A stretch of 64,000 bases of DNA from Candidatus Shapirobacteria bacterium CG_4_10_14_0_8_um_filter_39_15 (GTDB lineage Bacteria; Patescibacteriota; Microgenomatia; UM-FILTER-39-15). The notes beneath the pieces were generated by a model, which saw nothing but the letters and a program-made list of their open reading frames with translations, was not told the DNA's origin and ran no database searches. The DNA is taken from contig PFLE01000004.1 of the NCBI GenBank assembly GCA_002784465.1, positions 8,494 to 72,493 on the forward strand. Direction: 5' to 3'. Shown here piece after piece: positions 5,762 to 63,338 of the stretch; position 1 is the stretch's first letter, and each line of letters opens with the position of its first letter. Made by a program: the position numbers and the translations under genes.

Positions 5762-7771
5762 ATGGATTTAATTATAGTAGAATCACCAACAAAAGCGCGA
5801 ACGTTATCAAGATTCCTGGGGTCTGATTATCAGATCGAAGCCACCATGGGCCATATCCGTGATTTGCCGCAAAAAAAGTTTGCCATTAAAACCGATAAGG
5901 ATTTTGAACCGGAATATGCGGTTGTTCCCGGAAAAGAAGAAACCATTAAAAGATTGCAAACCTTAGCCAAAAAGGCTGGTAAAATTTATCTGGCAACAGA
6001 CCCCGATCGCGAGGGAGAAGCAATCGCATGGCATGCTCGCATTGCCTGCGAAAATCCGAAATCCGAAGCACGAAATTCGAAATTTGTGAGAGCAACCTTT
6101 CACGAAATTACTAAGACGGCAATTGAACACGCGCTGAAAAACCCACGTGATATTGATATGGCCCTAGTTAATGCCCAGCAGGCGAGGAGAGTTTTGGATC
6201 GGATTGTCGGTTACAAACTCTCGCCTCTTTTGTGGTTTAAAATCCGCAAGGGTTTATCGGCAGGTAGAGTCCAAACTGTCGCGGTCCGTTTAATCGTCGA
6301 GCGGGAAAGAGAAATTGAAAAATTCATTACAGTAGAATATTGGGAAATTTTCGTGGGTTTGAAAAAACATTTGGGCGGGATGATGCCGGATGCCTCGATT
6401 TTTAATGCCAAACTAATTTCTGAAAACGGCCAAAAATTGGAATTGCATAATCAGCAAGAATCGGATATTCGGGTAAGTGAGTTAAATGACGCTGGTTATG
6501 AAGTCCAAAATATTGAGAAAAAACTGGCCAAAAGACCGCCGCCCCCGCCATTTACGACTTCGACTTTACAACAGCAAGCCGCCAATCGTTTGGGTTGGCC
6601 GGCTAAAAAAACGATGAGCGTTGCCCAAAGTCTTTATGAAAAAGGTTTAATTACTTATCACCGGACCGATTCGACTAATTTGGCAATGGAGGCGGTGATT
6701 GCCGCCAGAGAATTTATTAAACAAAAATACGGAGAGAATTTTTTACCCGAAAAACCAAGGTTTTACAAAACAAAATCAAAAGTAGCGCAGGAAGCGCATG
6801 AAGCGATACGTCCAACTGAAGTTGGGTGGGAAGCGGGAAGCGGGAAGCTGCTTGCCCTGAGCGGAGTCGAAGGGGAAGTTGGATACGATGAACAAAAATT
6901 ATACGATTTGATTTGGAAAAGATTTACGGCCTGTCAAATGAGCGAGGCAGTTTTTGATGAGACAAAGTTATCAGTCTTGGCTACATCTAAAACTAACCAT
7001 TATGATTTGGAAACCTTGGGAAGAATAATCAAATTTGCCGGCTGGTTAACTTTGTACGGTAAGGGCGAGAGTGACGAAGACGGGCAATTGCAACTACCAG
7101 AATTGTTTATCGGCGATGAATTAGATTTGGTGAAAGTGAACCCGCTACAGAAATTTACCAAACCGCCGGCGAGATATAACGAGGCTTCTTTAATTAAAAC
7201 TTTGGAAGAATACGGAATTGGCCGGCCGTCAACTTATGCCCCGACGATTTCCACAATTCAAGACCGGATGTATGTTGAAAAAACAGAGAATAAATTTTCC
7301 CCAACTTCCTTGGGAATAGCGGTTAATGATTTCCTGCTGGAATATTTTCCGGACATTTTTGATTATCAATTTACTGCCCACATGGAAGACGATTTGGATG
7401 AAATTGCCAACGGAAAAAAGGAATGGGTGCCGGTAATTAGAGAATTTTTCGAACCATTTAACACGAAGTTGACCAGTGTTTCCAAAGTTTCCGAAAGAGT
7501 GGCTGTCGAAACGGAAGTCACAGACGAAAAATGTCCGCAGTGCGGCGCGCCCCTGGTAGTTCGTTTAGGCCGTTATGGTAAATTTCTTTCCTGCTCAAAA
7601 TTCCCGGAATGTAAATTCACGAAACCTTTCATAAAAGAAGCCGGTTTTAATTGTCCAAAATGCGGCGCACCGGTGGTTTTAAGAAAAACTAAAAAAGGGA
7701 AAACTTTTTACGGTTGTTCCAAATGGCCTAAGTGTGATTTTGCCACCTGGCGTAAACCAAACGTCAACTGA
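5762..7771 (+). CDS. topA: DNA topoisomerase I
   Basis: Toprim N-terminus (IIVESPTKARTL), a catalytic domain, and two C-terminal zinc ribbons (CPQCGAPLVVRLGRYGKFLSCSKFPEC and CPKCGAPVVLRKTKKGKTFYGCSKWPKC). Confidence 0.92.
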   Translation: MDLIIVESPTKARTLSRFLGSDYQIEATMGHIRDLPQKKFAIKTDKDFEPEYAVVPGKEETIKRLQTLAKKAGKIYLATDPDREGEAIAWHARIACENPKSEARNSKFVRATFHEITKTAIEHALKNPRDIDMALVNAQQARRVLDRIVGYKLSPLLWFKIRKGLSAGRVQTVAVRLIVEREREIEKFITVEYWEIFVGLKKHLGGMMPDASIFNAKLISENGQKLELHNQQESDIRVSELNDAGYEVQNIEKKLAKRPPPPPFTTSTLQQQAANRLGWPAKKTMSVAQSLYEKGLITYHRTDSTNLAMEAVIAAREFIKQKYGENFLPEKPRFYKTKSKVAQEAHEAIRPTEVGWEAGSGKLLALSGVEGEVGYDEQKLYDLIWKRFTACQMSEAVFDETKLSVLATSKTNHYDLETLGRIIKFAGWLTLYGKGESDEDGQLQLPELFIGDELDLVKVNPLQKFTKPPARYNEASLIKTLEEYGIGRPSTYAPTISTIQDRMYVEKTENKFSPTSLGIAVNDFLLEYFPDIFDYQFTAHMEDDLDEIANGKKEWVPVIREFFEPFNTKLTSVSKVSERVAVETEVTDEKCPQCGAPLVVRLGRYGKFLSCSKFPECKFTKPFIKEAGFNCPKCGAPVVLRKTKKGKTFYGCSKWPKCDFATWRKPNVN

Positions 7772-7789
7772 CAAGGTTAGACCTTGTCA
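7769..7789. repeat. REP-like 21-bp perfect palindrome TGACAAGGTTAGACCTTGTCA (copy 1; overlaps the topA TGA stop and the RAYT stop)
   Basis: Exact palindrome read directly from the sequence. Confidence 0.9.
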
Positions 7790-8502
7790 CTAATAGTATC
7801 AGCGTTGTCGAGAGCGAATTTACCTAATAGTTCTTCAGAATTTCCCGCATAGTCTTCAATAAATTTTTTATAAGAATTTATTTCTTTAGGAATAAGAAGA
7901 TTGGTGGAATCGAAATAATCAAGAATAATTTTTGGCTTAATCCAATCGGCAGATTTATTGCCTAGATAATAATTATAACTGGAGTAGGGAGAATTGACAG
8001 GGTTAAATCCTTTATTCGATAGTTCTTTAGGATTGAGATGAATATATCGAGATAAATGTAATAGATAAGAATCTTCCTGAATTAAAGCTGCCTTAAAGGC
8101 TCCTTGGAAAAGATGCCCAACTCTTTTATATCGACTATTGAAATACATAGAATAAGTTGTTAAAAGTCTTCTTAGTAATTTAGTCATTCCGTCTAAGGTC
8201 AATTGTTGTATGAGTAAATGAAAATGGTTCGGCATAAGACAATAGGCTAGTAAGATAACTTCGTTTTTTAGATTTTGGAGCGGTCGTAATCTGACAGGGT
8301 TAAACCCTGTCAGGATAAGATTAGCAAGTGGGTGTTGTTTTTGGTCGTTTTTGGTTTGCTCGGAGAGATAATACTTTAGTAGATGTAAAAAAACTCGATA
8401 ATCTTGGTCATCTAAAAAAATGTTACGTTTTTCAACTCCTCGATTGTAAACATGGTAGAATCCGTTTTCCACATACTGCTTAATAATATTTCTGGAGGGC
8501 AT
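7777..8502 (-). CDS. REP-associated tyrosine transposase (RAYT; IS200/IS605 TnpA-like Y1 HUH enzyme)
   Basis: HUH motif (LMPNHFHLLIQ) and the catalytic-Tyr region (SRYIHLNPKE) match the RAYT signature (YIHxNPV). The gene is bracketed by two copies of the 21-bp palindrome TGACAAGGTTAGACCTTGTCA. Confidence 0.8.
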   Translation of the reverse strand: MPSRNIIKQYVENGFYHVYNRGVEKRNIFLDDQDYRVFLHLLKYYLSEQTKNDQKQHPLANLILTGFNPVRLRPLQNLKNEVILLAYCLMPNHFHLLIQQLTLDGMTKLLRRLLTTYSMYFNSRYKRVGHLFQGAFKAALIQEDSYLLHLSRYIHLNPKELSNKGFNPVNSPYSSYNYYLGNKSADWIKPKIILDYFDSTNLLIPKEINSYKKFIEDYAGNSEELLGKFALDNADTISDKV

Positions 8503-8518
8503 ATTACCTACATTTTAT

Positions 8519-8539
8519 TGACAAGGTTAGACCTTGTCA
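8519..8539. repeat. REP-like palindrome TGACAAGGTTAGACCTTGTCA (copy 2; 17 bp upstream of the RAYT start)
   Basis: Exact palindrome read directly from the sequence. Confidence 0.9.
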
Positions 8540-8600
8540 AGTGGCGAAGAAAAAAAAGAGCCCCCGGCTTTGGAAAATACACAAAGCTAATGGCTCCCCT

Positions 8601-8864: not shown

Positions 8865-8883
8865 ATGCCACCTCCTTTGACGG

Positions 8884-12387: not shown

Positions 12388-12395
12388 AACAAAAT

Positions 12396-14387: not shown

Positions 14388-15743
14388 ATGGAAAATAAAA
14401 TTTTGCAACTAATTAAAAAAGAAGAACAAAGACAAGCTGATACGCTTATGATGATTCCCTCGGAAAATTATACTTATCCGGAAGTCCGGCAGGCGGTTGG
14501 GTCGGTTTTAATGCATAAATATGCGGAAGGCCAGCCTGGAAGAAGATATTATCAAGGAAATTCGGTGGCGGACCAGGTGGAAAGCGAATGCGAGAGATTA
14601 GCCCTGGAAGCCTTTGGATTAAATTCCGATCAGTGGGGTGTTAATGTCCAACCCTATTCCGGCTGTCCGGCTAATCTGGCGGTTTATAACGGAATACTCG
14701 ATATTGGAGATCGGATATTGGCTATGTATCTGCCTGATGGCGGGCATTTATCCCACGGGTGGCAAACTCCGGAGAAAAAAATCACTTTTGTTTCCAAAAT
14801 CTGGCAGGTGGAATTTTATCATGTAGATCCGAAAACCAGAGTTTTTGATTATGACCAAATTGAAAAACAAGCTTTAAAATTTAAACCAAAATTAATTATT
14901 TCCGGCGGAACGGCTTATCCACGGGAAATTGACTATCAACGTCTGTCGGGAATTGCAAAGTCTGTCGGAGCGTATTATATGGCCGATATTGCCCATGAAG
15001 CCGGATTAATTGCCGGTGGAGCCAATAAATCTCCTTTCCCTTATGCTGATGTGGTGACCATGACAACCCATAAAACTTTACGCGGTCCAAGAGGAGCGAT
15101 TATTATTTGTAAAAAAGAATTATTGGAAGCAATTGATCAGTCAATATTTCCTGGGTTGCAGGGAGGACCGCATTTACACACGATCGCCGGAATCGCCATT
15201 GCTTTGGAAAAAACCAAAACACCCGAATTTAAAAATTATGCTTTCCAAACAGTTAAGAACGCTCAAAGATTAGCCCAAAGACTAACGATTAAAGACTATG
15301 ACGTCGTCAGCGGGGGAACGGACAAACACCTTGTCTTGCTTGATTTAAGAAATAAAAATATCAGCGGTTGGTTTGTGGCTTGGGCTTTGGAAAAAGCGGG
15401 AATTATTATGAACCGAAACACCGTGCCAAACGACACCGGTTCGCCATTTTATCCATCTGGTTTACGAATGGGAACACCGGTCTTGACGGTGAGGGGGATG
15501 CGCGAAAAGGAGATGGATTTAATCGCGAGGTGGATAGATGAAGTGATACAGCACCTGGGTCCGAGAGAAATGCCGGAGAAGCAGCCCGCCTTGCTCGCCT
15601 CGCGGCGAAGCGGGCGGCGAGGCAGGGAAGCGAGAAGTAAGATGCGGGAGGAATTTAAAAAAGAAATTGAAAAAGATGAGTTTTTAAATAATATTAGTCT
15701 TCAGGTCAAAGACCTCTGCAATAAATTCCCCATACCAGGATAA
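14388..15743 (+). CDS. glyA: Serine hydroxymethyltransferase
   Basis: SHMT N-terminus ([37 protein letters not shown]) and the PLP-lysine region ([12 protein letters not shown]). There is a C-terminal extension containing a GA-rich repeat, and the stop lies within a hairpin repeat. Confidence 0.9.
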
Positions 15744-16228: not shown

Positions 16229-17092
16229 ATGGCCATTATTTTTGACGGAAAAAAATTAGCGGGAGAATTGGCAGAAAAATTAGATCGTGATGTTACTGAA
16301 TTTAAAGTTAAAACCGGAATTACTCCTAAATTGGTGAGTATTTTAGTGGGTGATGACCCAGCCTCGGTGCTTTATACCAAAATAAAACAAAAAAAGGCAG
16401 AGAGCGTGGGGATAGACTTTATTAAGAAAGAATTTCCGGAGAATGTTGAGCCGGAGGAATTGATTTCTGTTATAGAACAGCTAAACAAGGATAATTCAGT
16501 GCATGGAATTATGATTCAGCTTCCACTTCCCCGACAATCCGTAATTCGTAATTCGCAATCCGTAATCGTAGATACAATCAATCCTCAAAAAGACGTTGAT
16601 TGTTTGACTTCTGTAAATCTGGAATTGGTTAAACAAGGGAAACCTCGATTTCTTCCGGCGACCGTTCAAGCTATTTTTAAGATTATTAACCAAATACCCC
16701 GAGGTGCAGGTACGAATTCACCTTTAAGGTGTGAACGTAGTTATTGCGTAGTGGGATCGAGTGGAATGGTGGGGAAACCGCTGGCGGATTATCTGGAAAA
16801 TCAAGGATATCAGGTCAATCTTTGTGATGAATTTACCCCCGATATTTCCGTTTTTACCAAACAAGCCGATATTTTGATTTCTGCGACCGGAATTCCCAAT
16901 CTGATTAAAAAAGAAATGGTTAAGGCCGGTGTAGTTGTAATTGACGTTGGTTCGCCGGTAGGGGATGTGGATTTTGAAAATGTTAGTCAGGTGGCGTCAT
17001 TTATTACCCCTGTTCCTGGTGGTGTCGGGCCGTTAACCGTAATTTCGCTTCTTGAAAATACTCTTCAAGCATGCTATAATGCGCTTGCTTGA
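16229..17092 (+). CDS. folD: Bifunctional methylenetetrahydrofolate dehydrogenase / cyclohydrolase
   Basis: FolD motifs (VGDDPASVLYTKIK, HGIMIQLPLP, VVGSSGMVGKPLA). Confidence 0.88.
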   Translation: MAIIFDGKKLAGELAEKLDRDVTEFKVKTGITPKLVSILVGDDPASVLYTKIKQKKAESVGIDFIKKEFPENVEPEELISVIEQLNKDNSVHGIMIQLPLPRQSVIRNSQSVIVDTINPQKDVDCLTSVNLELVKQGKPRFLPATVQAIFKIINQIPRGAGTNSPLRCERSYCVVGSSGMVGKPLADYLENQGYQVNLCDEFTPDISVFTKQADILISATGIPNLIKKEMVKAGVVVIDVGSPVGDVDFENVSQVASFITPVPGGVGPLTVISLLENTLQACYNALA

Positions 17093-18554: not shown

Positions 18555-19109
18555 ATGAACTTAACTGACATTCGTCCTAAAATGGAAAAAGCCCTGGAAA
18601 TTCTTCAGGGAGAATTATCTTCAATCCGCACCGGACGGGCTACTTCTTCACTGGTTGAAAATATTGTCTGTTCTGTATATGGAGGAGCCCAAAAATTAAA
18701 AGTGGTTGAGTTGGGAATGATTGGTGTTTTGGATGCCAGAACTATTACCATAACTCCTTGGGACAATTCCATTGTTGGAGAAATCCGTCAGGGAATTTTA
18801 GCGGCCAACGTTGGATTAATGCCGATTATTGACGGAGCGGTGATTCGGGTGGCGGTTCCGGCGTTAACTTTGGAACGGCGCCAGGAATACATAAAATTAT
18901 TATCAAGACAATTAGAAAATGGTAAAATTATGATCCGCCAGGTGAGACATGAGAAAATGGCGGATATTAAAAACAGTTTTGAGAATAAGGAAATGGGGGA
19001 AGATGAGAAATTCAGACTGGAAGAAGAATTACAGAAAGTGACTGATGAATTTGTTAATAAAATAGATGAGATAGGAAAGAAAAAAGAAGAAGAACTCCTT
19101 ACTGTATAA
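18555..19109 (+). CDS. frr: Ribosome recycling factor
   Basis: 184 aa with typical RRF sequence (MEKALEILQGELSSIRTGRA ... ). Confidence 0.88.
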   Translation: MNLTDIRPKMEKALEILQGELSSIRTGRATSSLVENIVCSVYGGAQKLKVVELGMIGVLDARTITITPWDNSIVGEIRQGILAANVGLMPIIDGAVIRVAVPALTLERRQEYIKLLSRQLENGKIMIRQVRHEKMADIKNSFENKEMGEDEKFRLEEELQKVTDEFVNKIDEIGKKKEEELLTV

Positions 19110-19221
19110 CAGTTAAACAGTAAAACGGTAAAACAGTATTCTGTTGATCGGTATGCTATCTTACTGACTTACTGACTACTGATTTACTGATATACCGTTT
19201 AACCAATTTACCGAAAAAGAC

Positions 19222-20400
19222 ATGTTATCAACCCTACTTATTTTTTTAATAATCCTTTCAATCTTGGTTCTAGTTCACGAGCTGGGTCATTTCCTGGTTG
19301 CTAAAAAAGCCGGGATCAAAGTTGAAGAATTTGGTTTTGGATTGCCGCCAAGAATTTGGGGAAAGAAAATTGGGGAGACAATATATTCCATTAATGTTTT
19401 ACCAATTGGAGGATTCGTAAAAATGTACGGGGAAGAAGGGGAGGTTGGGAAGCGGGAAGCAAGAAGCGAGAAGTTAGAAAGAGCATTCTATGCCAAATCT
19501 AAAAAAGTTAGATTAGCGGTAGTGGCGGCAGGCGTAACGATGAATTTTCTGTTGGCGGTGGGTATTTTTTCCTTTGTTTATGCCAAATTAGGGATTCCGG
19601 TAAAGACGAACCAAGTGAGAGTGGTGGAAATTGCTCCAAACTCTCCGGCATCGGTCAGCGGTTTACAATTAGACGATGTGATTATTAAAGCGGGTGAGGA
19701 AAAAATAGATGACGCCTCGAAATTTATCCAAGCTACGAAAAAATTCGCCGGCCAAAAAATGCCTTTGGAAATTGATCGGGTTAACAATCCCTGTAAGTCT
19801 AACGTAATGGGGGCGACTCCAGGTTTGGTGATTGCCTGTAAGGATGGAAACATGCTTTTTTATGTGACCCCCAGACTTAATCCACCGGCGAATGAAGGAC
19901 CGCTTGGAGTGGCAATTTCCCAAATAGAAAATAAATTTTATCCTTGGCCGGAGCAAATAGTCCGCGGTTCAATAGAAGGATTCAAGGAAGCCTTTGGTTG
20001 GATCCAGTTGATTCTTTCGGGTTTGGGAACAATGTTAAGTCAACTTTTCCACGGATCAGTGCCCAAAGATGTGGCCGGACCGATAGGGATTTTTCAAGTT
20101 ACCGGCGAAGTTTCCAAGGGAGGAATTTTATCTTTATTGCAATTTTTAGGAATTTTGTCGGTAAATTTGGCGGTTATCAACATTTTGCCCCTGCCGGCCT
20201 TAGATGGCGGACGGGTTTTGTTTATTGTAATAGAAACAATAACCAAAAGAAAAGTAAATCAGGAATTAGAAACCAAAATTCATAACATTGGAATGATAGT
20301 TTTACTCACCTTAATTCTTCTTATTACGATAAATGATATTTCCAGAATTTTAACAACTTTCGGTATCTTATCTCGTCTCCGTTCGCTTCTTCCATTATAA
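19222..20400 (+). CDS. rseP: RIP metalloprotease RseP (site-2 protease) with PDZ domain
   Basis: HExxH motif in a TM helix (VHELGHFLVAKKAG), a PDZ domain, and a C-terminal LDGG motif. Confidence 0.85.
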   Translation: MLSTLLIFLIILSILVLVHELGHFLVAKKAGIKVEEFGFGLPPRIWGKKIGETIYSINVLPIGGFVKMYGEEGEVGKREARSEKLERAFYAKSKKVRLAVVAAGVTMNFLLAVGIFSFVYAKLGIPVKTNQVRVVEIAPNSPASVSGLQLDDVIIKAGEEKIDDASKFIQATKKFAGQKMPLEIDRVNNPCKSNVMGATPGLVIACKDGNMLFYVTPRLNPPANEGPLGVAISQIENKFYPWPEQIVRGSIEGFKEAFGWIQLILSGLGTMLSQLFHGSVPKDVAGPIGIFQVTGEVSKGGILSLLQFLGILSVNLAVINILPLPALDGGRVLFIVIETITKRKVNQELETKIHNIGMIVLLTLILLITINDISRILTTFGILSRLRSLLPL

Positions 20401-28811: not shown

Positions 28812-30344
28812 ATGTCAGATTTTACTGCCAAATACCGGCCACAAACAAATTCCGAATTGGATTTAACTTTTGCCCGCGAGCAGATCTCGAAGATCTTTTC
28901 TTCGGGAAAGGTTCCCCATGCTTTGTTATTTTCTGGCCCTCGTGGTATTGGCAAGACATCGGCGGCTCGGATTGTGGCGAAAACAGTGAATTGCCTGGAA
29001 CCGACAAAAGAAGGGGAACCCTGCAATAAATGCGATCAGTGTGTTTCGATTACCAACGGAAGTAACCTTGATATATTGGAAATTGACGCGGCCTCAAACA
29101 GGGGAATTGACGACATCCGCGATTTGAAAGAAAAGATTAAACTCGCCCCGACCAGAGCGAAATATAAAGTTTACATAATTGATGAGGTTCACATGTTAAC
29201 GACTGAAGCCTTTAATGCCTTGTTAAAAACTTTGGAGGAACCGCCGGAACACGCTATTTTTATTTTATGCACGACGGCGCCGGAAAAATTACCGGAAACG
29301 ATTACCTCCCGTTGTCTGCAAATAAATTTCAAAAGAGCCAGCGAAAAAGAAATTATTGAAAAATTGGAGAAAATTTCCAAGGAGGAAAAAATTGAAATCG
29401 AAAAAGAAGCTTTGGCTAAAATCGCAAAAGCAGTCAACGGCAGTTTCCGCGACGCGACGAAGATTTTGGAGCAGCTTTCTTTTGCCAAAGAGAAAATTAC
29501 GGTCGATTTCGTGGCGGAAATTTTAGGTCAGATAACCGGTTTGGGACCGGAAAAATTATTAGTTTTATTGGTGGATAAAGATACGGTTGACGGAATTAAA
29601 GAAATTGACCGGATTGTCGAAAGCGGGGGTAATCTGCGTGTTTATACTGAACAGCTTTTGGAATTATTGCGATTGGGAATGTTGGCAAAACTTGGTGTCA
29701 CAGATATCACTGAGATACAACAGATTACACTGAGTATTGAAGATTATAAAAGACTAATTGAGATTTTTGCTAAAGCCGGTTTGGAGTTGAAAGACGCAGT
29801 TATACCACAACTTCCATTAGAGATGGCGGTTGTTGAGTGGTGTGTAGAAGGACAAGAGAAGCGAGATGTTGGAAGCAAGAAGCGGGAAGAAGAGGACGAG
29901 AATCAGAAAAAAAAGGAACCAGAATCTCGCATCTCACCTCTCGCATCTCACCTCTCAACCGTATCATCATCCTCCAGTATTTCCTTAGAATCGATTCAAA
30001 ACAAATGGCCGGAGGTGCTGAAAGGGGTTAAGCCGAAAAATCACTCGGTTGAGGCGTTGCTGCGGGCGACCAGACCCTTGGAAGTCAAAAATAATTTTTT
30101 GATTCTGGAGGTTTTTTACAAATTTCATAAGGATAAATTGGAAAGCGAAAAATGCCGGCAGATTTTGGAAGATACAATCAATGAAGTTTACGGAGAACCA
30201 ATTCAAATCAGATGTGTTTTGGGAGAACGGAAACCTGCTAACACTGAATCACTGAAGGAAACTGAAACACTGAAAGATGCCGAAACACAGAATGATGATA
30301 TTATTAAATCGGCCGAAGAAATTTTTAGTGTTTCGGTAGAGTAA
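28812..30344 (+). CDS. dnaX: DNA polymerase III subunit gamma/tau
   Basis: AAA+ P-loop (GPRGIGKTSAARIVAK), a zinc module (CNKCDQC), and the clamp-loader SRC region. The linker carries in-frame tandem repeats. Confidence 0.9.
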   Translation: MSDFTAKYRPQTNSELDLTFAREQISKIFSSGKVPHALLFSGPRGIGKTSAARIVAKTVNCLEPTKEGEPCNKCDQCVSITNGSNLDILEIDAASNRGIDDIRDLKEKIKLAPTRAKYKVYIIDEVHMLTTEAFNALLKTLEEPPEHAIFILCTTAPEKLPETITSRCLQINFKRASEKEIIEKLEKISKEEKIEIEKEALAKIAKAVNGSFRDATKILEQLSFAKEKITVDFVAEILGQITGLGPEKLLVLLVDKDTVDGIKEIDRIVESGGNLRVYTEQLLELLRLGMLAKLGVTDITEIQQITLSIEDYKRLIEIFAKAGLELKDAVIPQLPLEMAVVEWCVEGQEKRDVGSKKREEEDENQKKKEPESRISPLASHLSTVSSSSSISLESIQNKWPEVLKGVKPKNHSVEALLRATRPLEVKNNFLILEVFYKFHKDKLESEKCRQILEDTINEVYGEPIQIRCVLGERKPANTESLKETETLKDAETQNDDIIKSAEEIFSVSVE

Positions 30345-31496: not shown

Positions 31497-31497
31497 A

Positions 31498-31586
31498 CAA
31501 TTGTTACATTGTTATATTGCTAGATTGCTAGAATGAAGACGACTGAAAACATTATAGCAATTTAACATTATAGCATTCTAACAATG
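31498..31586. repeat. AT-rich TTGTTATA motif element with inverted partner (upstream of apt)
   Basis: CAATTGTTACATTGTTATATTGCTAGATTGCTAGAATG, a spacer, then AACATTATAGCAATTTAACATTATAGCATTCTAACAATGG. Confidence 0.6.
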
Positions 31587-32009
31587 GAAAAAATCAATCT
31601 CAAAAATAAGATCGCCGATATTCCTAATTTCCCCAAAAAGGGGATTGTGTTTCGGGATATAACTCCTTTGCTGCTGGATTCTGTTTATTTTAATGAAACA
31701 ATAGAAAGAATGAAGTGGGAAGTGAGAAGTTTGAAAATAGAAGCGATTCTTGGGATAGAATCCAGAGGGTTTATATTCGGAGCAACATTAGCGCGTGAAT
31801 TGGGAGTCGGTTTCGTGCCGGTAAGAAAAATCAATAAACTGCTTCCCAGAAAAACCGTGGAACAAACTTATGATTTGGAATACGGGAAAGATGGCGTAAA
31901 AATTCACGCGGATTCGGTTCAACCTGGTCAGCGGGTTTTGATTGTGGAAAGGTCACTGCTTTTCTATTCCTCAACGAACTTTGCTATCTTCATCCCAGAA
32001 AGGCATTAA
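31584..32009 (+). pseudogene. apt: Adenine phosphoribosyltransferase, 3'-truncated
   Basis: The APRT N-terminus is intact up to GQRVLIV. The PRPP-binding loop (expected VDDLLATGGT) is then replaced by unrelated residues and an early stop, with no continuation in the other frames. Confidence 0.6.
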
Positions 32010-34658: not shown

Positions 34659-34756
34659 TAATTTAAAAGTCAAAAGGCAAAATGTAAAAGTGTGGTCAGC
34701 ACTTCGTGCTGGAATTGATAATTTTTACTTTTGACTTGTAATTTTGAATTTCAACG

Positions 34757-35212
34757 ATGCCTAATCCATTACCACAAGCATTTCTAAATCAAATCAAACA
34801 AACCGCTCAAGATTCGGTTGAAACGGTTAAGCAAACCGTAGATAGCGGTATGGAACAAATTGGTTTACAAACTCGTCCGCTTTCGCAGGCAAAATTACTT
34901 TTTCCTGATCAATATGGTCAACCAACCGACGGTCTTCCTCAAAAAGAGAAAAACGACTTTAAACGGATGGTTGAAATTGGTCAGTTGCAAAAAAAGTTGA
35001 ATGCTGAAATTGCTAATGCGCAACAACAGAGAACAAAAGAATTACAACAAAGAAGAGAACCCCCAAAACAGACGCCGCAAATAAAGGAAATGACGCCGAC
35101 GATTGAAACCAGCGCGCCGCAAAAGGGAAAGCCTGGAGCCAATAATAGGAAAGTTGAAGCAGCTAAAAAACAGTCACAGCCGGAAACGTCGGGACAAAGA
35201 CAATCAGGTTAA
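34757..35212 (+). CDS. Hypothetical Q/K-rich low-complexity protein
   Basis: 151 aa, flanked by AT-rich inverted repeats. Confidence 0.35.
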   Translation: MPNPLPQAFLNQIKQTAQDSVETVKQTVDSGMEQIGLQTRPLSQAKLLFPDQYGQPTDGLPQKEKNDFKRMVEIGQLQKKLNAEIANAQQQRTKELQQRREPPKQTPQIKEMTPTIETSAPQKGKPGANNRKVEAAKKQSQPETSGQRQSG

Positions 35213-35324
35213 GTCAAAAATCAAAAGTTAAAAATTAAAATTTCAAGTTAAAATCCAAAAGTTTAGAACTCAATTTTGACTTTTGAATTGTATTTTTGAA
35301 TTTTGCCTTTTGCATTTTGAATTT

Positions 35325-36770
35325 ATGCTTAAACTATACAATACTTTATCGCATAAACTGGAAGAATTTAAACCAATAAATCCTGATCAAATAGGTGTCT
35401 ATTCTTGCGGCCCGACAGTTTATTGGAACCAGCATATTGGCAATATGTATGCTTTTGTTCAATGGGACGCGATGGTTCGGTTTCTGCGTTTTCTTGGTTG
35501 GAATGTTAAATGGGTAATGAATATTACGGATGTTGGTCATATGACTTCCGACGAAGATTCCGGTGAGGATAAAATGGAAAAAGGGGCCAAAAGAGAAGGA
35601 ATGACTCCTTGGGAAATCGCCGATAAATATTTAGGTCAATTTAAAGAGAGCATTGATTTATTGAACATTAAGCCAGATTTGTTGCCGAGAGCTACAGAAC
35701 ATATACAAGAGCAAATTGATTTGATTAAGAAAATAGAGGATCGAGGTTTTGCTTATAAAACAAAAACCGGATTGGTTTTCAATACGGCTAAATTTCCGGG
35801 TTACGCGGATTTTGCGCGATTAGATCTTTCAAAACAAGAAGCCGGTTCTCGGGTTGAAGTTGATCCGGAAAAGAAAAACCCCTGGGATTTTCTTCTTTGG
35901 GTAACAAATCAGCCTAATCATATTATGCTTTGGGATTCACCGTGGGGAAAAGGTTTTCCGGGTTGGCACATTGAATGCACGGCAATGTCAACGAAATATT
36001 TAGGAGAAACTTTTGACATTCATACCGGCGGCAAAGAGCATATTCCGGTTCACCATACTAATGAAGTGGCCCAAGGATTCGGCGCGTTTGGTCATCAAAC
36101 CGCTAATTTCTGGCTTCATAATGAGTGGTTGTCAATAAAGGGAGAAAAAGCAAGCAAGAGTTCGGGAAATTTTTATTTGGTAACTGACTTAGTGGAAAAA
36201 GGATATGATCCGTTAGCTTTTCGCTATTTGGTTTTAACTTCGCAATATCATTCCGGATTGGATTTTTCATTCGAGGCGTTAACCGGCGCGCAAACCACAT
36301 TATTCCGTTTGCGGGATCTGGTCGTTGGATGGAAACAGACCAAAGATGAAACCGGTTTTTCCCGGGAAACAATCGATAAGACGCAAGATTACCGCCAGAA
36401 ATTTATTGACGCGGTGAGCAACGATTTGAACTTTCCGGCCGGATTGGCCGTGGTTTGGGAAATGGCCAAATCGAATATCAATAGCGAAGACAAGCTGGAT
36501 TTAATACTGGAATTTGATAAAGTTATGGGATTAAGACTGGCAGAAGCAGGAAGCGAGAAGCGGGAAACATCGTCGGAAGTTGAGGAACTGGCGCAGAAAA
36601 GGGAAGTATTGAGAAAGCAAAAAAAATGGGAAACGGCGGATGAGGTACGGAAAGAGATTGAAAAGCTGGGTTACACGATAGAAGATAAAGCTGACGGATA
36701 CGTTTTAAAACATTGTCATTCCGAGCTTGTTTACACTGAGCGAAGCGAATGTGATTCAGAATCTATATAG
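35325..36770 (+). CDS. cysS: Cysteinyl-tRNA synthetase
   Basis: HIGH (HIGNMYA) and KMSKS (KSSGN variant KASKSSGN) motifs plus zinc-binding Cys residues. The C-terminal tail runs into a hairpin repeat. Confidence 0.88.
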
Positions 36771-38332: not shown

Positions 38333-38881
38333 ATGTCAACCAGATCGTTAAATAAAGTTCAATTAATCGGGAACATGACTCGGGATCCGGAATTGCGGTA
38401 TACGCCCCAAGGAACAGCTGTCTGTACTTTTGGATTAGCCACCAATCGGTCTTGGATAACCGATAACGGTGAGAAAAAAGAAGAAACCGAATTTCACAAG
38501 ATTGTCGTTTGGAATAAACTGGCCGAACTTTGTTCTCAATTGCTTTTTAAAGGCCGGAGGATTTATGTTGAAGGGCGATTGCAAACCCGATCGTGGACCG
38601 GTCAAGACGGAGTTGCTCATCAAACAACGGAAATTGTTATTTCTGATATGCTGATTCTGGATAATAAGCGGGCCGAAGGAGTTGGGGGAGCGGGGGCGGT
38701 TGTACCAGAAGCCGAAGAGGTTGTTGAACCTGTGGTAGCAGAATCGGTTGAGAAGCGAGAGGCGGGAAGCGAGAAAAAGACGGAAAAGGCCAAAAAAGAG
38801 GAAAAGCCCGAAAAATCGGAAGAACAACCTAAGGAAACAGAAGAAGGCGAAACTGTCAAAAAAGAAGACATTCCTTTTTGA
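38333..38881 (+). CDS. ssb: Single-stranded DNA-binding protein
   Basis: OB fold (VQLIGNMTRDPELRYTPQGTAVCTFGLATNRSW) and a long charged tail ending DIPF. Confidence 0.9.
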   Translation: MSTRSLNKVQLIGNMTRDPELRYTPQGTAVCTFGLATNRSWITDNGEKKEETEFHKIVVWNKLAELCSQLLFKGRRIYVEGRLQTRSWTGQDGVAHQTTEIVISDMLILDNKRAEGVGGAGAVVPEAEEVVEPVVAESVEKREAGSEKKTEKAKKEEKPEKSEEQPKETEEGETVKKEDIPF

Positions 38882-52332: not shown

Positions 52333-52493
52333 TTAGGGGGTTAGGGTGAGGCAGTTGGTATGGTGAGGAGGTAAAGGTAATGGGGAAGCGGAAAGAGATT
52401 TACCCTGAGCGAATGGTGAGCGTAGTCGAACCAGAGTCGAGGGGAAAAACATGGCCACAGAAGAGCAAGAATAATTTTCTGTGGCCAAGTATG

Positions 52494-52832: not shown

Positions 52833-52974
52833 TTAGAACCTCCTTATAATAAAGTGAAAGAACAACGATTTTTGTGATTCTGAGAAGAAGTATACCAGAA
52901 AAGGGCGAGAAGTCAAGAAGGCCCTTCGACTACTCAGGGTAAACAAGAGAGCAGAAAGGAAGAGAATGATTTTG

Positions 52975-55376: not shown

Positions 55377-56123
55377 ATGGAGCCAAAGATTATTTTTGAA
55401 GATGATTATCTGCTTGTTTTGGACAAACCTTCTGGTTGGGTAGTTAATGATGCGGAAACTACTAAAGGGCAAAAAACTGTACAGGACTGGCTTCGCCAGA
55501 ATTTTCAATTTTCAATTTTCAGTTTTCAAGAAATGCGGAATGGAATTGTGCATCGTTTAGATAAGGAAACTTCTGGAATATTGCTGGTTGCCAAAACACC
55601 GGAAGCATTTGTGGAACTCCAACGCCAATTCAAGGAAAGAATTGTCAAAAAAACCTATTTTGCTTTGGTGCATGGGAAGGTTGAACCGGCTGAAGGGGAA
55701 ATCAACGCGCCGGTAGGCAGAACTTCTTGGAATCGCGAGCGGTTTGGTATTACCTTGGAAGGAAAAGAAGCCAAGACAAAGTATAAAGTTCTATCCCGCT
55801 TCACGCGTCTTGTTTACCCTGTAAGGGCTTCTTGTTTCTCTTTAGTTGAGCTTTATCCCGAGTCAGGAAGAACACATCAGATACGGGTTCATATGCAATA
55901 CCGCGGTTATCCGCTGGTCGGCGATGAATTTTATGCCGGAAAAAAAACCGCGGCCGAAGACCGGAAATGGTGCCCGAGAGTTTTTCTCCATGCCGCCAAG
56001 ATTTCTTTCTTGAATCCAAAAACTGGTAAACCAGTTGAATTTAAATCGTCATTACCAGAGGAATTGGAAAACGTCTTGTCGTCATTCCGAGTGAAATCCT
56101 TACAGGGTAAACGAGGAATCTAA
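55377..56123 (+). CDS. RluA-family pseudouridine synthase
   Basis: Catalytic HRLDKETSGILLVAK motif. The C-terminal tail is encoded by a hairpin repeat, and an in-frame AATTTTC x3 repeat encodes NFQFSIFSFQ. Confidence 0.85.
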   Translation: MEPKIIFEDDYLLVLDKPSGWVVNDAETTKGQKTVQDWLRQNFQFSIFSFQEMRNGIVHRLDKETSGILLVAKTPEAFVELQRQFKERIVKKTYFALVHGKVEPAEGEINAPVGRTSWNRERFGITLEGKEAKTKYKVLSRFTRLVYPVRASCFSLVELYPESGRTHQIRVHMQYRGYPLVGDEFYAGKKTAAEDRKWCPRVFLHAAKISFLNPKTGKPVEFKSSLPEELENVLSSFRVKSLQGKRGI

Positions 56124-59668: not shown

Positions 59669-59673
59669 GTAAT

Positions 59674-60375: not shown

Positions 60376-60451
60376 TTTACATGTTCTTATATTTATATAA
60401 GAATGAAGAATCTGTATTTTTATCATAATTGGCTTCAAAAACATTAATTTT

Positions 60452-62014: not shown

Positions 62015-62606
62015 AGTTTCAAAATAATTAATCAGCTATTTATTGAGACTTATTTCTTCTTATCAAATGGTTTATGTTTTGTACTTTCCTTTATTAGCTT
62101 ATTAAAATCACTTCTTTCTATTTCTTTTGTTTCGATGATTTTGTGTAATTTATTGTCCTTAGGATTATTTTTATGTCTTTGTAGAATTCCTTTTAATGTG
62201 AGTGGTTTCAGTTTGATCATATTGTTATTATATCAAATTTAACTTTCTTAAATCTTTCCCCTCCTTATATATAAGGATATAGAAGTAAGACTTTTTGCTC
62301 ATTTAGCTTCATTTTTGGTCCAAAACAGTACAAACACGCTTGTACTAAATATCTGGTTATTTTACATGACGTTTAGGGATACGTGTCCGAATTTCTGTGT
62401 AGCAGAAACGCGGGCGTAGACCCCGTAGACACGCCCTTGCGATGCGTGGATGTAAACCACGGGAGCAAGAAAGTATTCTACTGGGGTCAAGGGGTATTAG
62501 TTTTCTGGTTGGTTGGTTTACTGGTTATCTGGTTATTTTTTCTACCAGAATGCCAGACAACCAGCCAACTAGATAACTAAGTAATTTTCTGGTAAAATAA
62601 TAGATT

Positions 62607-63338
62607 ATGTCGGGACATTCAAAATGGGCAACCATTCATCGCGATAAAGAAATCACCGATGCCAAAAAAGGTCAAGCTTGGACGCGGATTACCAACGCGA
62701 TTATTGTCGCGGTTAGGGAATCCGGCGGCATGACCGATCCGGAAAAGAATTTTAAATTAAGATTAGCCATGGACAAGGGCCATGAAGTAAATATGCCCAA
62801 AGATAATATTGATCGGGCAATTGCTCGTGGAAGTGGAGAAGTGGGAAGTGAGAAGTGGGAAGAAGTTACGTACGAGGGTTATGGTCCCGGTGGAGTAGCG
62901 ATTATGATAGAGACAACCACGGATAATAAAAACCGGACGGCTCAAGAAGTTAAAAATATTTTTGAACGGGGCGGGGGATCATTGGCCAGCCGCGGGGCGG
63001 TAGCTTTTCAATTTGCTTCCAAAGGGTATATCGTTTTGGAAAAACCGGCTAATTCCGAAGAAGCGATTTTAAAAATTATGGATTTAGGGGTGGAGGATGT
63101 GGAGGAAGAGGATGACGCGATTGAAATTTATACTCAACCGGAAGATCTGCAAAAAATTAAAGCCGGTTTGCTGGAAGCTGGTTATCAAGTGAAAAGCTAT
63201 GAATTGGCTTTAAAACCAACGGTTGTGGTTCCCATAAGCGATCAAGCTACGTCTGCTAAAATTTTGACCCTGATGGAAAACTTAGAGAGCCAAAGTGACG
63301 TTCAAAAAGTCTACGCCAATTTTGATATCATCGGTTAG
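62607..63338 (+). CDS. yebC: YebC/PmpR-family transcriptional regulator
   Basis: MSGHSKWATIHRDKEITDAKKGQAWTRITNAIIVAVRESGGMTDPEKNFKLRLAMDKG matches the YebC N-terminus. A GA-rich in-frame repeat sits in a loop. Confidence 0.88.
   Translation: MSGHSKWATIHRDKEITDAKKGQAWTRITNAIIVAVRESGGMTDPEKNFKLRLAMDKGHEVNMPKDNIDRAIARGSGEVGSEKWEEVTYEGYGPGGVAIMIETTTDNKNRTAQEVKNIFERGGGSLASRGAVAFQFASKGYIVLEKPANSEEAILKIMDLGVEDVEEEDDAIEIYTQPEDLQKIKAGLLEAGYQVKSYELALKPTVVVPISDQATSAKILTLMENLESQSDVQKVYANFDIIG

What the first reader, a model, noticed from the sequence alone, without database searches (positions are those of the whole stretch)
6819..62865. GA-rich element (GAAGCGGGAAGCGAGAAG-like) present in-frame inside at least 8 unrelated housekeeping genes
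Near-identical purine-rich 20-35 bp segments occur inside eight genes. They are topA (6819-6851, EVGWEAGSGK), glyA tail (15607-15641, [10 protein letters not shown]), rseP (19441-19477, EVGKREARSEK), dnaX (29855-29894, KRDVGSKKREEE), cysS (36540-36585, [11 protein letters not shown]), ssb tail (38751-38780, KREAGSEKK) and yebC (62829-62865, a T-variant encoding GEVGSEKWEE); the nrdD segment is related but mostly falls into the next class. Each sits at a non-homologous, probably loop or linker position, is always in-frame, and encodes an (E/R)(A/V)GSEK(R/K)E-like patch. This resembles the in-frame spread of Rickettsia palindromic elements into coding genes. It suggests an intragenic mobile or recombination-generated sequence class, though the mechanism is unknown.
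Basis: seen in the sequence. Interest (0 to 1): 0.7.

Follow-up and report, generated by a model that had tools for sequence, protein, structure and literature searches.

The report
Seven-base tandem repeats inside essential genes
The purine-rich patches are short tandem repeats of a 7-base unit (GAAGYRR) inside the genes of an uncultured groundwater bacterium; they change in 21-base steps, are not a jumping element, and show an unusual way for variable protein loops to be rewritten.

Summary
GAAGYRRGAAG occurs 15 times on the + strand and 0 times on the - strand, against 0.15 expected after codon shuffling. The copies lie in topA, glyA, rseP, dnaX, cysS, ssb and yebC, and also in an APRT gene.

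The patches are tandem heptanucleotide arrays of 3-5 degenerate units, not copies of a discrete element. Because 7 and 3 share no factor, any reading frame gives the same cyclic heptapeptide (EAGSGKR or EARSEKR). "Always in frame, same peptide" is therefore arithmetic.

The window comes from a Candidatus Shapirobacteria genome (CPR). It has a general excess of period-7 arrays (coding and intergenic) and period-8 arrays (intergenic only, as inverted pairs that form hairpins).

- The arrays in yebC, cysS and APRT add no length compared with orthologs.
- The extra 8 residues in topA are a separate 24-nt insert inside the array.
- rseP is exactly 21 nt longer than in a sister species.
- A near-identical strain differs by a 21-nt (3-unit) deletion in a folD array of a different unit family.
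- Relatives carry different heptamer units at the same two TopA loops.

Best reading: slippage or conversion-driven heptamer microsatellites, filtered by selection to tolerant loops. The RPE-like mobile-element reading is not supported for these patches. Why one unit family recurs in eight genes remains unexplained. Novelty: a new variant of a known kind.

The parts
6818..6847 (+). topA GA-family heptamer array, part A (GAAGTTG GGTGGGAAGC GGGAAGC GGGAAG), encoding EVGWEAGSGK
   Evidence: TRF reports period 7, 3.0 copies, 100% match at 6828-6848. Sequence read. It aligns unit for unit with the (GGGAAGT)x5 array at the same TopA loop in relative L016. The AF2 model gives coil and low confidence here (block means 64 for residues 351-360 and 45 for 361-370; pLDDT below 50 at 361-370).
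6848..6871 (+). 24-nt insert CTGCTTGCCCTGAGCGGAGTCGAA (LLALSGVE) that splits the topA array. This, not the GA array, accounts for the extra length of the loop
   Evidence: The TopA alignment shows +8 residues only in this genome. Removing these 24 nt restores register with L016. It is also present in strain L020 and in no other fetched locus.
6872..6883 (+). topA GA-family array, part B (GGGGAAGTTGGA)
15590..15606 (+). glyA tail: antisense-type arm (CTTGCTCGCCTCGCGGC), complementary to the GA arm
   Evidence: The RNA fold pairs it with 15607-15633, MFE -25 kcal/mol. The z-score is -3.1 against mononucleotide shuffles.
15607..15641 (+). glyA C-terminal tail GA-family array ([12 protein letters not shown]), lying after the SHMT domain
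   Evidence: Period-7 signal P=0.03 against synonymous resampling.
19441..19477 (+). rseP GA-family array (EVGKREARSEKLE) in the variable charged loop after GGFVKMYGE
   Evidence: TRF period 7. The loop is exactly 21 nt longer than in the sister species L141. It is +4 to +8 residues compared with E. coli and Aquifex RseP. The loop is variable across 120 homologs.
29855..29894 (+). dnaX linker GA-family array (EKRDVGSKKREEE), lying between domain III and the C-terminal domain
   Evidence: P=0.02.
29924..29957 (+). dnaX linker antisense-type array (ATCTCGC/ATCTCAC, 14-mer x2.3, encoding SRISPLASHLS). It is the inverted partner of the GA arm
   Evidence: TRF reports a 14-nt period at 100% match. 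The fold pairs the two arms. z = -3.1 against mononucleotide shuffles.
31712..31730 (+). APRT ORF GA-family array, T variant (MKWEVRS), with no length change compared with PDB orthologs
   Evidence: Gapless alignment to APRT structures. P=0.003.
36540..36585 (+). cysS GA-family array ([16 protein letters not shown]) in the linker before the anticodon-binding domain. This is the most degenerate copy
   Evidence: The patch aligns residue for residue with a PDB CysRS, and the nearby gaps are in the query. P=0.057.
38750..38780 (+). ssb C-terminal tail GA-family array (EKREAGSEKK)
   Evidence: P=0.013.
62829..62865 (+). yebC GA-family array, T variant (GSGEVGSEKWEE), with no length change
   Evidence: TRF reports period 7, 4.7 copies. 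Alignments to Aquifex, E. coli and Coxiella YebC are gapless. A sister species has a same-length segment with no periodicity and 29 mismatches in 60 nt. The AF2 model places it in a loop at residues 76-84.
6050..6085 (+). Second topA array, of a different family (AAATCCG/AAATTCG, encoding ENPKSEARNSKF), at TopA hot spot 1
   Evidence: The same position carries heptamer-derived peptides in many TopA homologs. pLDDT is below 50 at residues 101-104.
16535..16567 (+). folD array (AATCCGT/AATTCGT, encoding QSVIRNSQSVI). It is polymorphic by 3 units between strains
   Evidence: A 21-nt deletion in strain L020 is the only indel longer than 1 nt in 20.8 kb. P<0.0002.
55500..55528 (+). Array in the rluA-like gene (AATTTTC x4, encoding NFQFSIFSFQ)
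5671..5761 (.). Intergenic hairpin upstream of topA, built from inverted 8-mer arrays: (ATTGCTAT)x3.5 and (ATAACAAT)x4
   Evidence: z = -4.5.
19104..19205 (.). Intergenic hairpin between frr and rseP, built from inverted 8-mer arrays (AACAGTAA and TTACTGAC)
   Evidence: z = -5.2.
31497..31590 (.). Intergenic hairpin of inverted 8-mer arrays (ATTGTTAT/ATTGCTAG family)
   Evidence: z = -5.5.
34660..34750 (.). Intergenic hairpin of inverted 7-mer arrays (AAAAGNC and its complement)
   Evidence: z = -3.4.
35210..35330 (.). Hairpin of inverted 7-mer arrays (TCAAAAA and TTTTGAA) just upstream of the likely cysS start
   Evidence: z = -2.3. The PDB alignment of CysS begins at residue 16 of the listed ORF.
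62500..62582 (.). Intergenic hairpin upstream of yebC, built from inverted 8-mer arrays (TGGTTNNN and ACCAGNNA)
   Evidence: z = -8.9.

Best explanation
The GA-rich patches are short heptanucleotide microsatellite arrays of 3-5 degenerate units of GAAGYRR.

They are the commonest of several 7-nt repeat families in this Candidatus Shapirobacteria (CPR, Microgenomates) genome. The genome also carries 8-nt arrays, but only between genes.

Shown:
- The arrays are tandem, and period 7 is the only period enriched inside genes.
- The periodicity is a DNA-level property, beyond what the encoded peptide needs.
- Length changes at arrays come in 21-nt steps, which is 3 units or 7 codons and the only step that keeps a reading frame.
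- Several arrays occupy a segment of unchanged length compared with orthologs.
- Related genomes carry different heptamer units at the same TopA loops.

Inferred:
- Arrays arise and are kept homogeneous by replication slippage and/or short-patch templated conversion within and perhaps between arrays.
- Selection removes arrays that create stops, shift the frame or disturb the fold. Survivors therefore sit in surface loops, linkers and tails, mostly with the purine-rich strand as sense, where all three frames give small or charged residues.

Because 7 and 3 are coprime, every frame yields the same cyclic heptapeptide. This explains the shared (E/R)(A/V)GSEK(R/K)E patch without any frame-aware insertion mechanism.

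Not explained: why the same unit family is used at 8 or more sites in this genome.
For: Tandem structure and period:
- TRF and a self-similarity scan show excess only at periods 7, 8 and 14.
- With codon-shuffled genes, period 7 gives 10 coding arrays against 0.35 expected and 4 intergenic against 0.03. Period 8 gives 1 coding (0.58 expected) and 8 intergenic (0.03 expected).

Family enrichment: GAAGYRRGAAG gives 15 hits on + and 0 on -, against 0.145 expected.

DNA-level periodicity exceeds synonymous-codon resampling at 10 of 11 arrays tested.

21-nt steps:
- The folD array is 21 nt shorter in a strain that is 99.9% identical over 20.8 kb.
- The rseP loop is exactly 21 nt longer than in a sister species of 79% nt identity.

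No insertion at several sites:
- yebC, cysS and APRT align to solved orthologs without a gap in the array.
- The YebC segment has constant length in all but a handful of the 121 aligned homologs, and its peptide is close to their consensus.

Same loop, other units:
- The orthologous TopA loop holds (GGGAAGT)x5 in L016, (AAATTGG)x5 in L017 and (AAATTAC)x5 in L018.
- 27 of 120 TopA homologs and 5 of 120 RseP homologs have peptides that match the three-frame translation of a single heptamer at 9 or more of 11 residues. No shuffled control window reached that score.

Predicted loops.

Literature:
- Heptameric SSRs are the over-represented long SSR class in many bacteria, and a polymerase-slippage explanation was proposed by Mrazek et al. 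2007, as cited in PMC4692102 and PMC4679880.
- Genome-specific heptamer families are known in Xanthomonas, Nostoc and Beggiatoaceae (same papers).
Against: - Slippage alone does not explain how a heptamer array starts inside an essential ORF, because a single 7-nt duplication shifts the frame.
- It also does not explain how the yebC segment came to differ from the sister species at 29 of 60 nt without a length change.
- It does not by itself explain why one unit family dominates in this genome.
- Some arrays share long identical strings: 19 nt between APRT and yebC, and 18 of 19 nt between rseP and dnaX. This could mean copying between sites.
- No copy-number polymorphism was seen in the GA-family arrays themselves among the sampled strains. 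topA, glyA and rseP are identical in L020, and the dnaX, ssb and yebC proteins are identical at the array across cluster members.
- The one within-population event seen is in another unit family.
Confidence: 0.62

Rival explanations
1. The arrays are copies of a very small mobile or recombination-copied cassette, on the model of RPEs or cyanobacterial SDRs. The cassette would be pasted into, or over, sites in genes, perhaps by a hairpin-dependent enzyme such as the RAYT-like Y1 transposase encoded next to topA, or by gene conversion between arrays.
For: - The same unit family is found in 8 genes.
- Unit variants occur in the same order at different loci: GAAGTGGGAAGTGAGAAGT in APRT and yebC, and GGAAGCAAGAAGCG in rseP and dnaX.
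- The yebC segment looks overwritten compared with the sister species, with no change of length.
- Four of seven arrays begin just 3' of GTTG.
- A real 24-nt insertion sits inside the topA array.
- glyA and dnaX in the window, and TopA hot spot 1 in three relatives, carry in-ORF hairpins made of inverted arrays 60-120 nt long. These do look palindromic-element-like.
- A Y1_Tnp/RAYT-like ORF lies at 7777-8502.
Against: - There are no conserved ends, no target duplications and no fixed length, and the arrays are internally degenerate.
- Five of the seven GA patches have no fold.
- The GTTG is pre-existing coding sequence. It is present in the sister rseP that lacks the array, and in topA it corresponds to V-G residues seen in a subset of relatives.
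- Unit sequences differ between hairpins, unlike REP/REPIN families.
- Orthologous TopA loops hold different units in different genomes.
- The RAYT-like hit is weak, at 38.5 bits against a cut-off of 80.
- Two-variant arrays can share unit order by chance.
Confidence: 0.17
2. The heptamer is a selected DNA or RNA signal, and arrays are kept because the signal is useful. Candidates are a strand-oriented recombination or segregation motif, a G-quadruplex former, or a binding site for a heptamer-reading protein. From memory, GAAGCGG is the Staphylococcus aureus Chi sequence.
For: - Strand asymmetry is complete: 15 on +, 0 on -, on the G-rich and presumably leading strand.
- DNA-level periodicity is maintained although the YebC peptide looks old.
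- The same GAAGYGR arrays turn up in at least 120 metagenome contigs with GC content from 27% to 75%.
- Related G-rich heptamers (GGGAATC, GGGGAYT) have been studied as G4 formers (PMC4692102).
Against: - Only the topA and rseP arrays have four G3 tracts.
- Single GAAGCGR copies outside arrays show only the skew expected from gene orientation, roughly 17 against 7.
- The sister species lacks the arrays at yebC and rseP.
- Other units replace it at the same TopA loop.
- Antisense copies exist inside ORFs, in dnaX here and in L030.
- The metagenome scan had no control pattern, so it does not show enrichment.
- The Chi identity is recalled from memory and was not tested.
Confidence: 0.1
3. The similarity is protein-level convergence or chance. 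Charged flexible loops need E/K/R/G/S, and this genome's purine-rich codons make them look alike.
For: The patches lie in charged variable segments whose orthologs are also rich in E/K/R/G. The coding strand is purine-rich.
Against: - Codon-shuffled genes give 0.145 matches against 15 observed.
- Synonymous resampling of the very same peptides gives far weaker period-7 signal.
- Period 7 is enriched, but periods 6 and 9 are not.
- Non-GA heptamer arrays encode hydrophobic peptides, for example NFQFSIFSFQ and KLEIGNW.
Confidence: 0.03

Closest known systems
Long heptanucleotide simple sequence repeats of prokaryotes (Mrazek, Guo and Shah 2007, as summarised in PMC4692102 and PMC4679880)
   Same: Head-to-tail 7-nt units. 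Period 7 is specifically over-represented. Copy number changes by whole units. Slippage is the proposed cause.
   Different: The cited summaries say that units whose length is a multiple of three were the ones most likely to be found in coding regions. Here 10 strong period-7 arrays lie inside ORFs in 64 kb, including essential housekeeping genes, and the host is a CPR bacterium. I found no SSR study of this group.
G-rich heptamer repeats: GGGAATC in Xanthomonas and GGGGA(T/C)T in Nostoc (Rehm et al. 2015, PMC4692102)
   Same: A G-rich purine-biased 7-nt unit. One dominant unit family per genome. Some occur as inverted pairs. Length varies between relatives.
   Different: Those repeats are preferentially intergenic, under-represented in coding regions, and prefer four units, which fits G-quadruplex formation. 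Here most copies are coding, the units are GAGAAGC or GAAGCGA as often as GGGAAGC, and only 2 arrays have four G3 tracts.
TAACTGA direct repeats of marine Beggiatoaceae and cyanobacteria (MacGregor 2015, PMC4679880), and cyanobacterial STRR heptamers (Mazel et al. 1990, from memory)
   Same: Genome-characteristic heptamer families at many loci. When read through, they give a 7-residue peptide repeat (LSVISYQ in that paper). The mechanism of spread is unknown.
   Different: Those are mostly upstream of start codons or intergenic, and the unit sequences are different. Here the arrays are short (3-5 units) and embedded in conserved proteins.
Rickettsia palindromic elements (RPE; Ogata et al. 2000, from memory)
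   Same: Repeated DNA found in frame inside unrelated housekeeping genes at surface positions.
   Different: RPEs are about 100-150 bp, palindromic, share full-length sequence and are clear insertions. The GA patches are 20-45 nt, mostly unstructured, tandem-repetitive and often not insertions. Only the paired-arm forms (dnaX, glyA, and TopA hot spot 1 of relatives) resemble RPEs in being in-ORF hairpins.
Small dispersed repeats (SDR) of Nostocaceae (Elhai et al. 2008; the paper is not held, cited via PMC5861425 and from memory)
   Same: The 24-nt insert that splits the topA heptamer array is in the 21-27 nt size range I recall for SDRs.
   Different: Only one clear copy is in the window, with two looser relatives near 52.4-52.9 kb. 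It is unrelated in sequence and host, and mobility was not shown.
Tandem repeats of Borg elements that create disordered protein regions (PMC9879509)
   Same: Rapidly evolving tandem DNA repeats inside ORFs that add or rewrite flexible protein segments.
   Different: This comparison rests on the abstract only. Here the arrays have a 7-nt unit, are much shorter, and lie in core genes of a small bacterial genome.

Membership tests
Heptanucleotide simple sequence repeat (microsatellite-type array) | Head-to-tail copies of one short unit | tested here: met
   TRF reports period-7 rows at 6828-6848, 19449-19473, 31712-30 and 62829-62. The self-similarity scan agrees. Units are degenerate in glyA, dnaX and cysS.
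Heptanucleotide simple sequence repeat (microsatellite-type array) | More and longer arrays than composition or codon usage predicts | tested here: met
   There are 10 coding arrays against 0.35 expected, and 15 motif hits against 0.145 expected.
Heptanucleotide simple sequence repeat (microsatellite-type array) | Copy-number change by whole units between close relatives | tested here: inconclusive
   Met for the folD array of another unit family, which is 21 nt (3 units) shorter in strain L020. Also met for rseP compared with a sister species, +21 nt. No polymorphism was seen within the GA-family arrays among strains of this species.
Rickettsia palindromic element-like in-frame mobile insert | A discrete element of conserved length and sequence (about 100-150 bp, from memory) | tested here: not met
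   The patches are 20-45 nt, variable in length and unit order, and have no shared ends.
Rickettsia palindromic element-like in-frame mobile insert | Palindromic, folding into a stable hairpin | tested here: not met
   The rseP, cysS and yebC patches fold no better than shuffles (z +0.8 to +1.4). topA and ssb fold weakly. Only dnaX and glyA have an inverted partner arm.
Rickettsia palindromic element-like in-frame mobile insert | Present as an insertion relative to orthologs | tested here: not met
   Alignments are gapless at yebC, cysS and APRT. The topA excess is a different 24-nt sequence. rseP is +21 nt compared with the sister species, but within the usual loop length of homologs.
G-quadruplex-forming heptamer repeats (Xanthomonas/Nostoc type) | Four or more G-tracts of 3 or more G, with a preference for four units | tested here: not met
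   A G3+N1-7 x4 search finds only the topA and rseP arrays. The other arrays use GAGAAGC or GAAGCAA units.
G-quadruplex-forming heptamer repeats (Xanthomonas/Nostoc type) | Mainly intergenic, within 50 bp of ORF ends | tested here: not met
   All strong GA-family arrays are inside ORFs.
REP/REPIN elements mobilised by a RAYT | Many copies of one short palindromic sequence, mostly intergenic, plus a RAYT gene flanked by them | tested here: inconclusive
   A weak RAYT-like ORF exists, at 38.5 bits against a cut-off of 80, and a 10-bp palindrome lies upstream of it. The intergenic hairpins have different arm sequences and a tandem-repeat substructure. The GA patches are coding and mostly unpaired.
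Chi-type recombination hotspot (S. aureus GAAGCGG, recalled from memory) | An oriented over-represented single-copy motif recognised by AddAB/RecBCD | not testable with these tools
   Outside the arrays, GAAGCGR occurs roughly 17 times on + and 7 times on -, similar to the gene-strand bias. No AddAB or RecBCD gene was looked for, and the rest of the genome is not available here.

The most novel reading that the evidence does not exclude
Microgenomates (CPR) genomes may have an active, templated process that writes and keeps homogenising 7-nt tandem arrays, and hairpins made of two inverted arrays, both between genes and inside essential genes. It would act at recurrent hot-spot loops (two in TopA, one each in RseP and YebC), with the unit sequence turning over between lineages. 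That would be an unrecognised way of rewriting protein surface loops. It would also be either a new class of in-ORF palindromic array element or the signature of an unusual replication or repair property of these reduced genomes.
Probability: 0.25. Interest if true: 0.8.

Novelty: new variant of a known kind. Interest (0 to 1): 0.55.

Why it matters
Tandem repeats whose unit is not a multiple of three are expected to be purged from essential genes, because a one-unit slip destroys the reading frame. In this genome they are common in such genes, persist at the same loops across deep divergences while the unit sequence changes, and change in 21-nt steps.

If this is general in CPR bacteria, it would have three consequences:
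- It would give a concrete DNA-level source for the lineage-specific loop and linker variation seen in their otherwise conserved proteins.
- It would be a caution for alignment, annotation and phylogeny of these genomes, since the 7-residue patches are convergent and not homologous.
- It would provide a natural system for asking why 7 to 8 nt is the preferred slippage or templating step in bacteria.

Tried and rejected
- Chance or codon usage was rejected by dinucleotide, codon and synonymous-codon controls.
- Assembly artefact was rejected. The same proteins, identical in sequence, occur in independent NCBI, JGI, ENA and Logan assemblies.
- RPE-like palindrome was rejected for five of the seven patches by folding.
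- G-quadruplex as a general property was rejected.
- Known RNA families: Rfam finds only tRNAs, so neither the patches nor the intergenic hairpins match a curated family.
- thyX-anchored relatives from genome contigs (L007-L015, about 60% identity) were too distant and mostly lacked the period-7/8 excess, so they gave no site-level comparison.
- The metagenome scan for GAAGYGR x3 hit unrelated taxa of 27-75% GC and none of this species. Without a control pattern it shows recurrence, not enrichment.
- Chi-like motif: single copies are not clearly enriched beyond the gene-strand skew. This remains an untested lead.
- The 24-nt topA insert was searched for in all fetched loci and found only in the same species.
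- Elhai et al. 2008 could not be read, so the SDR comparison rests on memory.

Full report
**Source and gene identities.** The window belongs to a Candidatus Shapirobacteria bacterium (Microgenomates group, CPR/Patescibacteria) from groundwater. The window's YebC, TopA, RseP and other proteins are found with identical sequences in NCBI assemblies (for example GCA_002778865.1) and in JGI, ENA and Logan assemblies. An assembly artefact is therefore excluded. GC content is about 40%, GC skew is positive throughout, and 59 of 72 ORFs are on the + strand.

- GGGAAGCGAGAAG with up to two mismatches occurs 16 times against 1.6 expected, 15 times on the + strand.
- The two-unit core GAAGYRRGAAG occurs 15 times on + and never on -. 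Shuffling codons within every gene gives 0.145.
- An eighth host is an adenine phosphoribosyltransferase ORF (31712-31730). The nrdD segment is a different 14-mer repeat.

**What the patches are.** They are tandem repeats of a 7-nt unit, GAAG-Y-R-R. The units seen are GAAGCGG, GAAGCGA, GAAGCAA, GAAGCAG, GAAGTGG, GAAGTGA and GAAGTTG. Each array has 3 to 5 units, which are often degenerate.

Because 7 and 3 are coprime, three units fill seven codons and pass through all three frames. Every reading frame therefore gives a cyclic permutation of one heptapeptide: (GAAGCGG)3 gives EAGSGKR and (GAAGCGA)3 gives EARSEKR. The units contain no T, or no stop in the frame used, so all frames stay open. "Always in frame" and "same peptide" are arithmetic.

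The periodicity is a DNA property, not a by-product of the peptide. Resampling synonymous codons for the same peptides gives much weaker period-7 signal, with P from below 0.0002 to 0.03 at ten arrays and 0.057 at cysS.

**The patches are one family in a genome-wide phenomenon.**
- Only periods 7 and 8, and 14 as twice 7, are in excess.
- Against codon-shuffled genes and shuffled spacers, period 7 gives 10 coding arrays (0.35 expected) and 4 intergenic arrays (0.03 expected).
- Period 8 gives 1 coding array (0.58 expected, so no excess) and 8 intergenic arrays (0.03 expected).
- Other heptamer families also sit in ORFs: AAATCCG in topA (6050-6085), AATCCGT in folD (16535-16567) and AATTTTC in an rluA-like gene (55500-55528).
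- Between genes the arrays come as inverted pairs that fold into long hairpins whose arms are themselves tandem repeats. These are at 5671-5761, 19104-19205, 31497-31590, 34660-34750, 35210-35330 and 62500-62582, with z from -2.3 to -8.9.
- None matches an Rfam family.

**Are the patches insertions?** Mostly not.
- *yebC:* the array aligns without a gap to Aquifex, E. coli and Coxiella YebC. The segment has the same length in all but a handful of the 121 aligned homologs, and its peptide GSGEVGSEKWEEV is close to the Microgenomates consensus GSGE.G.GKWEEV.
- *cysS and APRT:* the array aligns residue for residue with solved orthologs.
- *topA:* the loop between IRPT and DE.KLY is hypervariable in 120 homologs, and this genome has 8 extra residues. 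Those residues are a separate 24-nt sequence (6848-6871, LLALSGVE) that splits the array. Without it the array aligns unit for unit with (GGGAAGT)x5 in relative L016.
- *rseP:* the loop is +4 to +8 residues compared with E. coli and Aquifex, within the usual range for CPR homologs, and exactly 21 nt longer than in a sister species.
- *glyA, dnaX and ssb:* the arrays lie in tails or linkers that cannot be aligned.

AlphaFold models place both TopA arrays in coil, with pLDDT below 50 within or next to them (101-104 and 361-370). They place the YebC array in the loop at residues 76-84.

**Dynamics.**
- A second strain of the same species (L020) is 99.9% identical over 20.8 kb. It differs by four substitutions, one indel-plus-substitution in a G run, and one 21-nt deletion. 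That deletion removes exactly three units (QSVIRNS) from the folD array.
- A sister species from sample SRR22388223 (79-83% nt identity) has no array at yebC. Its segment has the same length, differs at 29 of 60 nt against about 4.5 mismatches per 30 nt elsewhere, and shows no periodicity. At rseP it is 21 nt shorter.
- The GA arrays themselves are invariant among the sampled strains.

**Relatives.**
- The same TopA loop holds (GGGAAGT)x5, (AAATTGG)x5 and (AAATTAC)x5 in three relatives, whose surrounding 22 kb also show period-7/8 excess.
- I scanned proteins for peptides that equal the three-frame translation of a single heptamer at 9 or more of 11 residues. No shuffled window reached that score. 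The scan flags 27 of 120 TopA homologs, clustered at two hot spots (about residue 100 and about residue 355), and 5 of 120 RseP homologs. Many different units are involved.
- At TopA hot spot 1 the three relatives carry in-ORF hairpins made of an array and its inverse, with z from -2.9 to -4.5. One has GA-family arms.
- In the window the dnaX linker and the glyA tail have the same two-arm form, each with z of -3.1.
- More distant relatives at about 60% identity mostly lack the excess.
- A metagenome scan for GAAGYGR x3 returned at least 120 contigs with 27-75% GC. The unit therefore recurs in unrelated organisms, but without a control pattern this is not evidence of enrichment.

**Mechanism.**

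*Shown:*
- tandem 7-nt structure;
- DNA-level periodicity;
- 21-nt steps;
- arrays occupying segments of unchanged length;
- unit turnover at orthologous loops;
- location in predicted loops.

*Inferred:*
- Arrays are made and homogenised by replication slippage and/or short-patch templated conversion.
- In ORFs only three-unit changes survive.
- Selection confines arrays to tolerant segments and to units without stops.

*Unexplained:*
- How an array is seeded in an essential ORF, since a single 7-nt duplication is a frameshift.
- How yebC was rewritten without a length change, or alternatively how DNA periodicity was kept if the array is ancestral.
- Why one unit family dominates here.

These gaps keep a copy or conversion mechanism between arrays alive as a rival. 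Long shared strings between APRT and yebC and between rseP and dnaX, the 24-nt insert, and a weak RAYT-like gene next to topA point that way. The lack of conserved ends, the variable length and the different units at the same site point against it. A selected-signal reading (G4, Chi-like, protein-binding) has little support. The identity of GAAGCGG with the S. aureus Chi sequence is recalled from memory and was not tested.

**Comparison with what is known.** Heptameric SSRs are the over-represented long SSR class in many bacteria, with a polymerase-slippage explanation proposed by Mrazek et al. 2007 (via PMC4692102 and PMC4679880). Genome-characteristic heptamer families are described in Xanthomonas and Nostoc (PMC4692102), and in Beggiatoaceae and cyanobacteria (PMC4679880). 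Those are mainly intergenic.

Compared with those reports, three things appear to be new:
- the frequent placement inside essential ORFs;
- the recurrent hot-spot loops across a CPR clade;
- the hairpins built from inverted arrays.

Literature searches found no description for CPR bacteria. The RPE analogy fails on length, palindromy and insertion status for the GA patches. It is only loosely apt for the two-arm in-ORF forms.

**Verdict.** The patches are a new variant of a known kind, heptanucleotide microsatellites, and are of moderate interest.

Noticed in passing
window 12033-12035 (nrdD, ORF 10467-12035): The window has TAA where the near-identical strain L020 has CAA. The anaerobic ribonucleotide reductase ORF therefore stops at 522 aa instead of 607 aa. 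This could be a nonsense allele, a pseudogene in this population, or a sequencing or consensus variant.
   Followed up: partly
window 6848-6871; related 52399-52445 (+) and 52920-52944 (-): The 24-nt CTGCTTGCCCTGAGCGGAGTCGAA is inserted in frame into the topA heptamer array. Looser relatives (TTACCCTGAG...GTCGA[AG]GGG) lie in inverted orientation on either side of a small unannotated ORF at 52494-52832(-), next to tRNA-Leu. It may be a very small mobile sequence.
   Followed up: partly
window 5671-5761, 19104-19205, 31497-31590, 34660-34750, 35210-35330, 62500-62582: Intergenic hairpins whose two arms are inverted tandem arrays of 7- or 8-nt units. The ATTGTTAT/ATTGCTAT family recurs at about five sites, and also upstream of topA in relative L017. 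Their function is unknown; terminators are one possibility. Period-8 arrays are confined to spacers.
   Followed up: partly
L016 10274-10378, L017 10277-10387, L018 10274-10396: In three relatives, the TopA loop after AWH (hot spot 1) contains an in-ORF hairpin made of an array plus its inverse. It adds about 15-25 residues compared with the window's TopA. In L017 the arms are of the GA family.
   Followed up: partly
window 7777-8502 (-), and 8516-8540: An ORF with an IS200-like Y1 transposase domain lies convergent with topA and is conserved in strain L020. It gives a weak match to REP-associated tyrosine transposase, at 38.5 bits against a cut-off of 80. A perfect 10-bp palindrome (TTGACAAGGT tag ACCTTGTCAA) sits just upstream of it.
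   Followed up: partly
window 29907-29915 (dnaX linker): An A8 run gives an in-frame A_AAA_AAG heptamer, the E. coli dnaX frameshift motif as I recall it. It lies in the loop between the GA arm and its inverted partner. Reading the alternative frames by eye, they run for some 25-40 codons before a stop, so a gamma-type product is not evident.
   Followed up: no
window 31584-32009: The APRT ORF is only 141 aa against about 170-180 aa for solved homologs. It loses similarity at the PRPP-binding motif, reading VLIVERSLLF where homologs have VLVVDDLLA. This may be a frameshift or a decaying gene.
   Followed up: no
window 49759-52332: The DnaB helicase is interrupted by an intein with a LAGLIDADG endonuclease domain.
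   Followed up: no
window 20825-21955 (-): An IS481-like (rve) transposase lies just downstream of rseP and is present in both strains.
   Followed up: no
window 11446-11478 (nrdD): A G-rich 14-mer repeated about 2.4 times (AAGGGGCGAGCGGC) lies inside nrdD, on the + strand. It is related in composition to the GA family but not in unit sequence.
   Followed up: no
L030 (metagenome contig Ga0210056_1002530), 544-aa ORF on the - strand: One ORF carries two arrays of different families: an antisense GA-family array (STSHFPLPTSH) and an AAATTAC-type array (ITNYKLQITN). GA units are therefore also tolerated in the antisense orientation.
   Followed up: no
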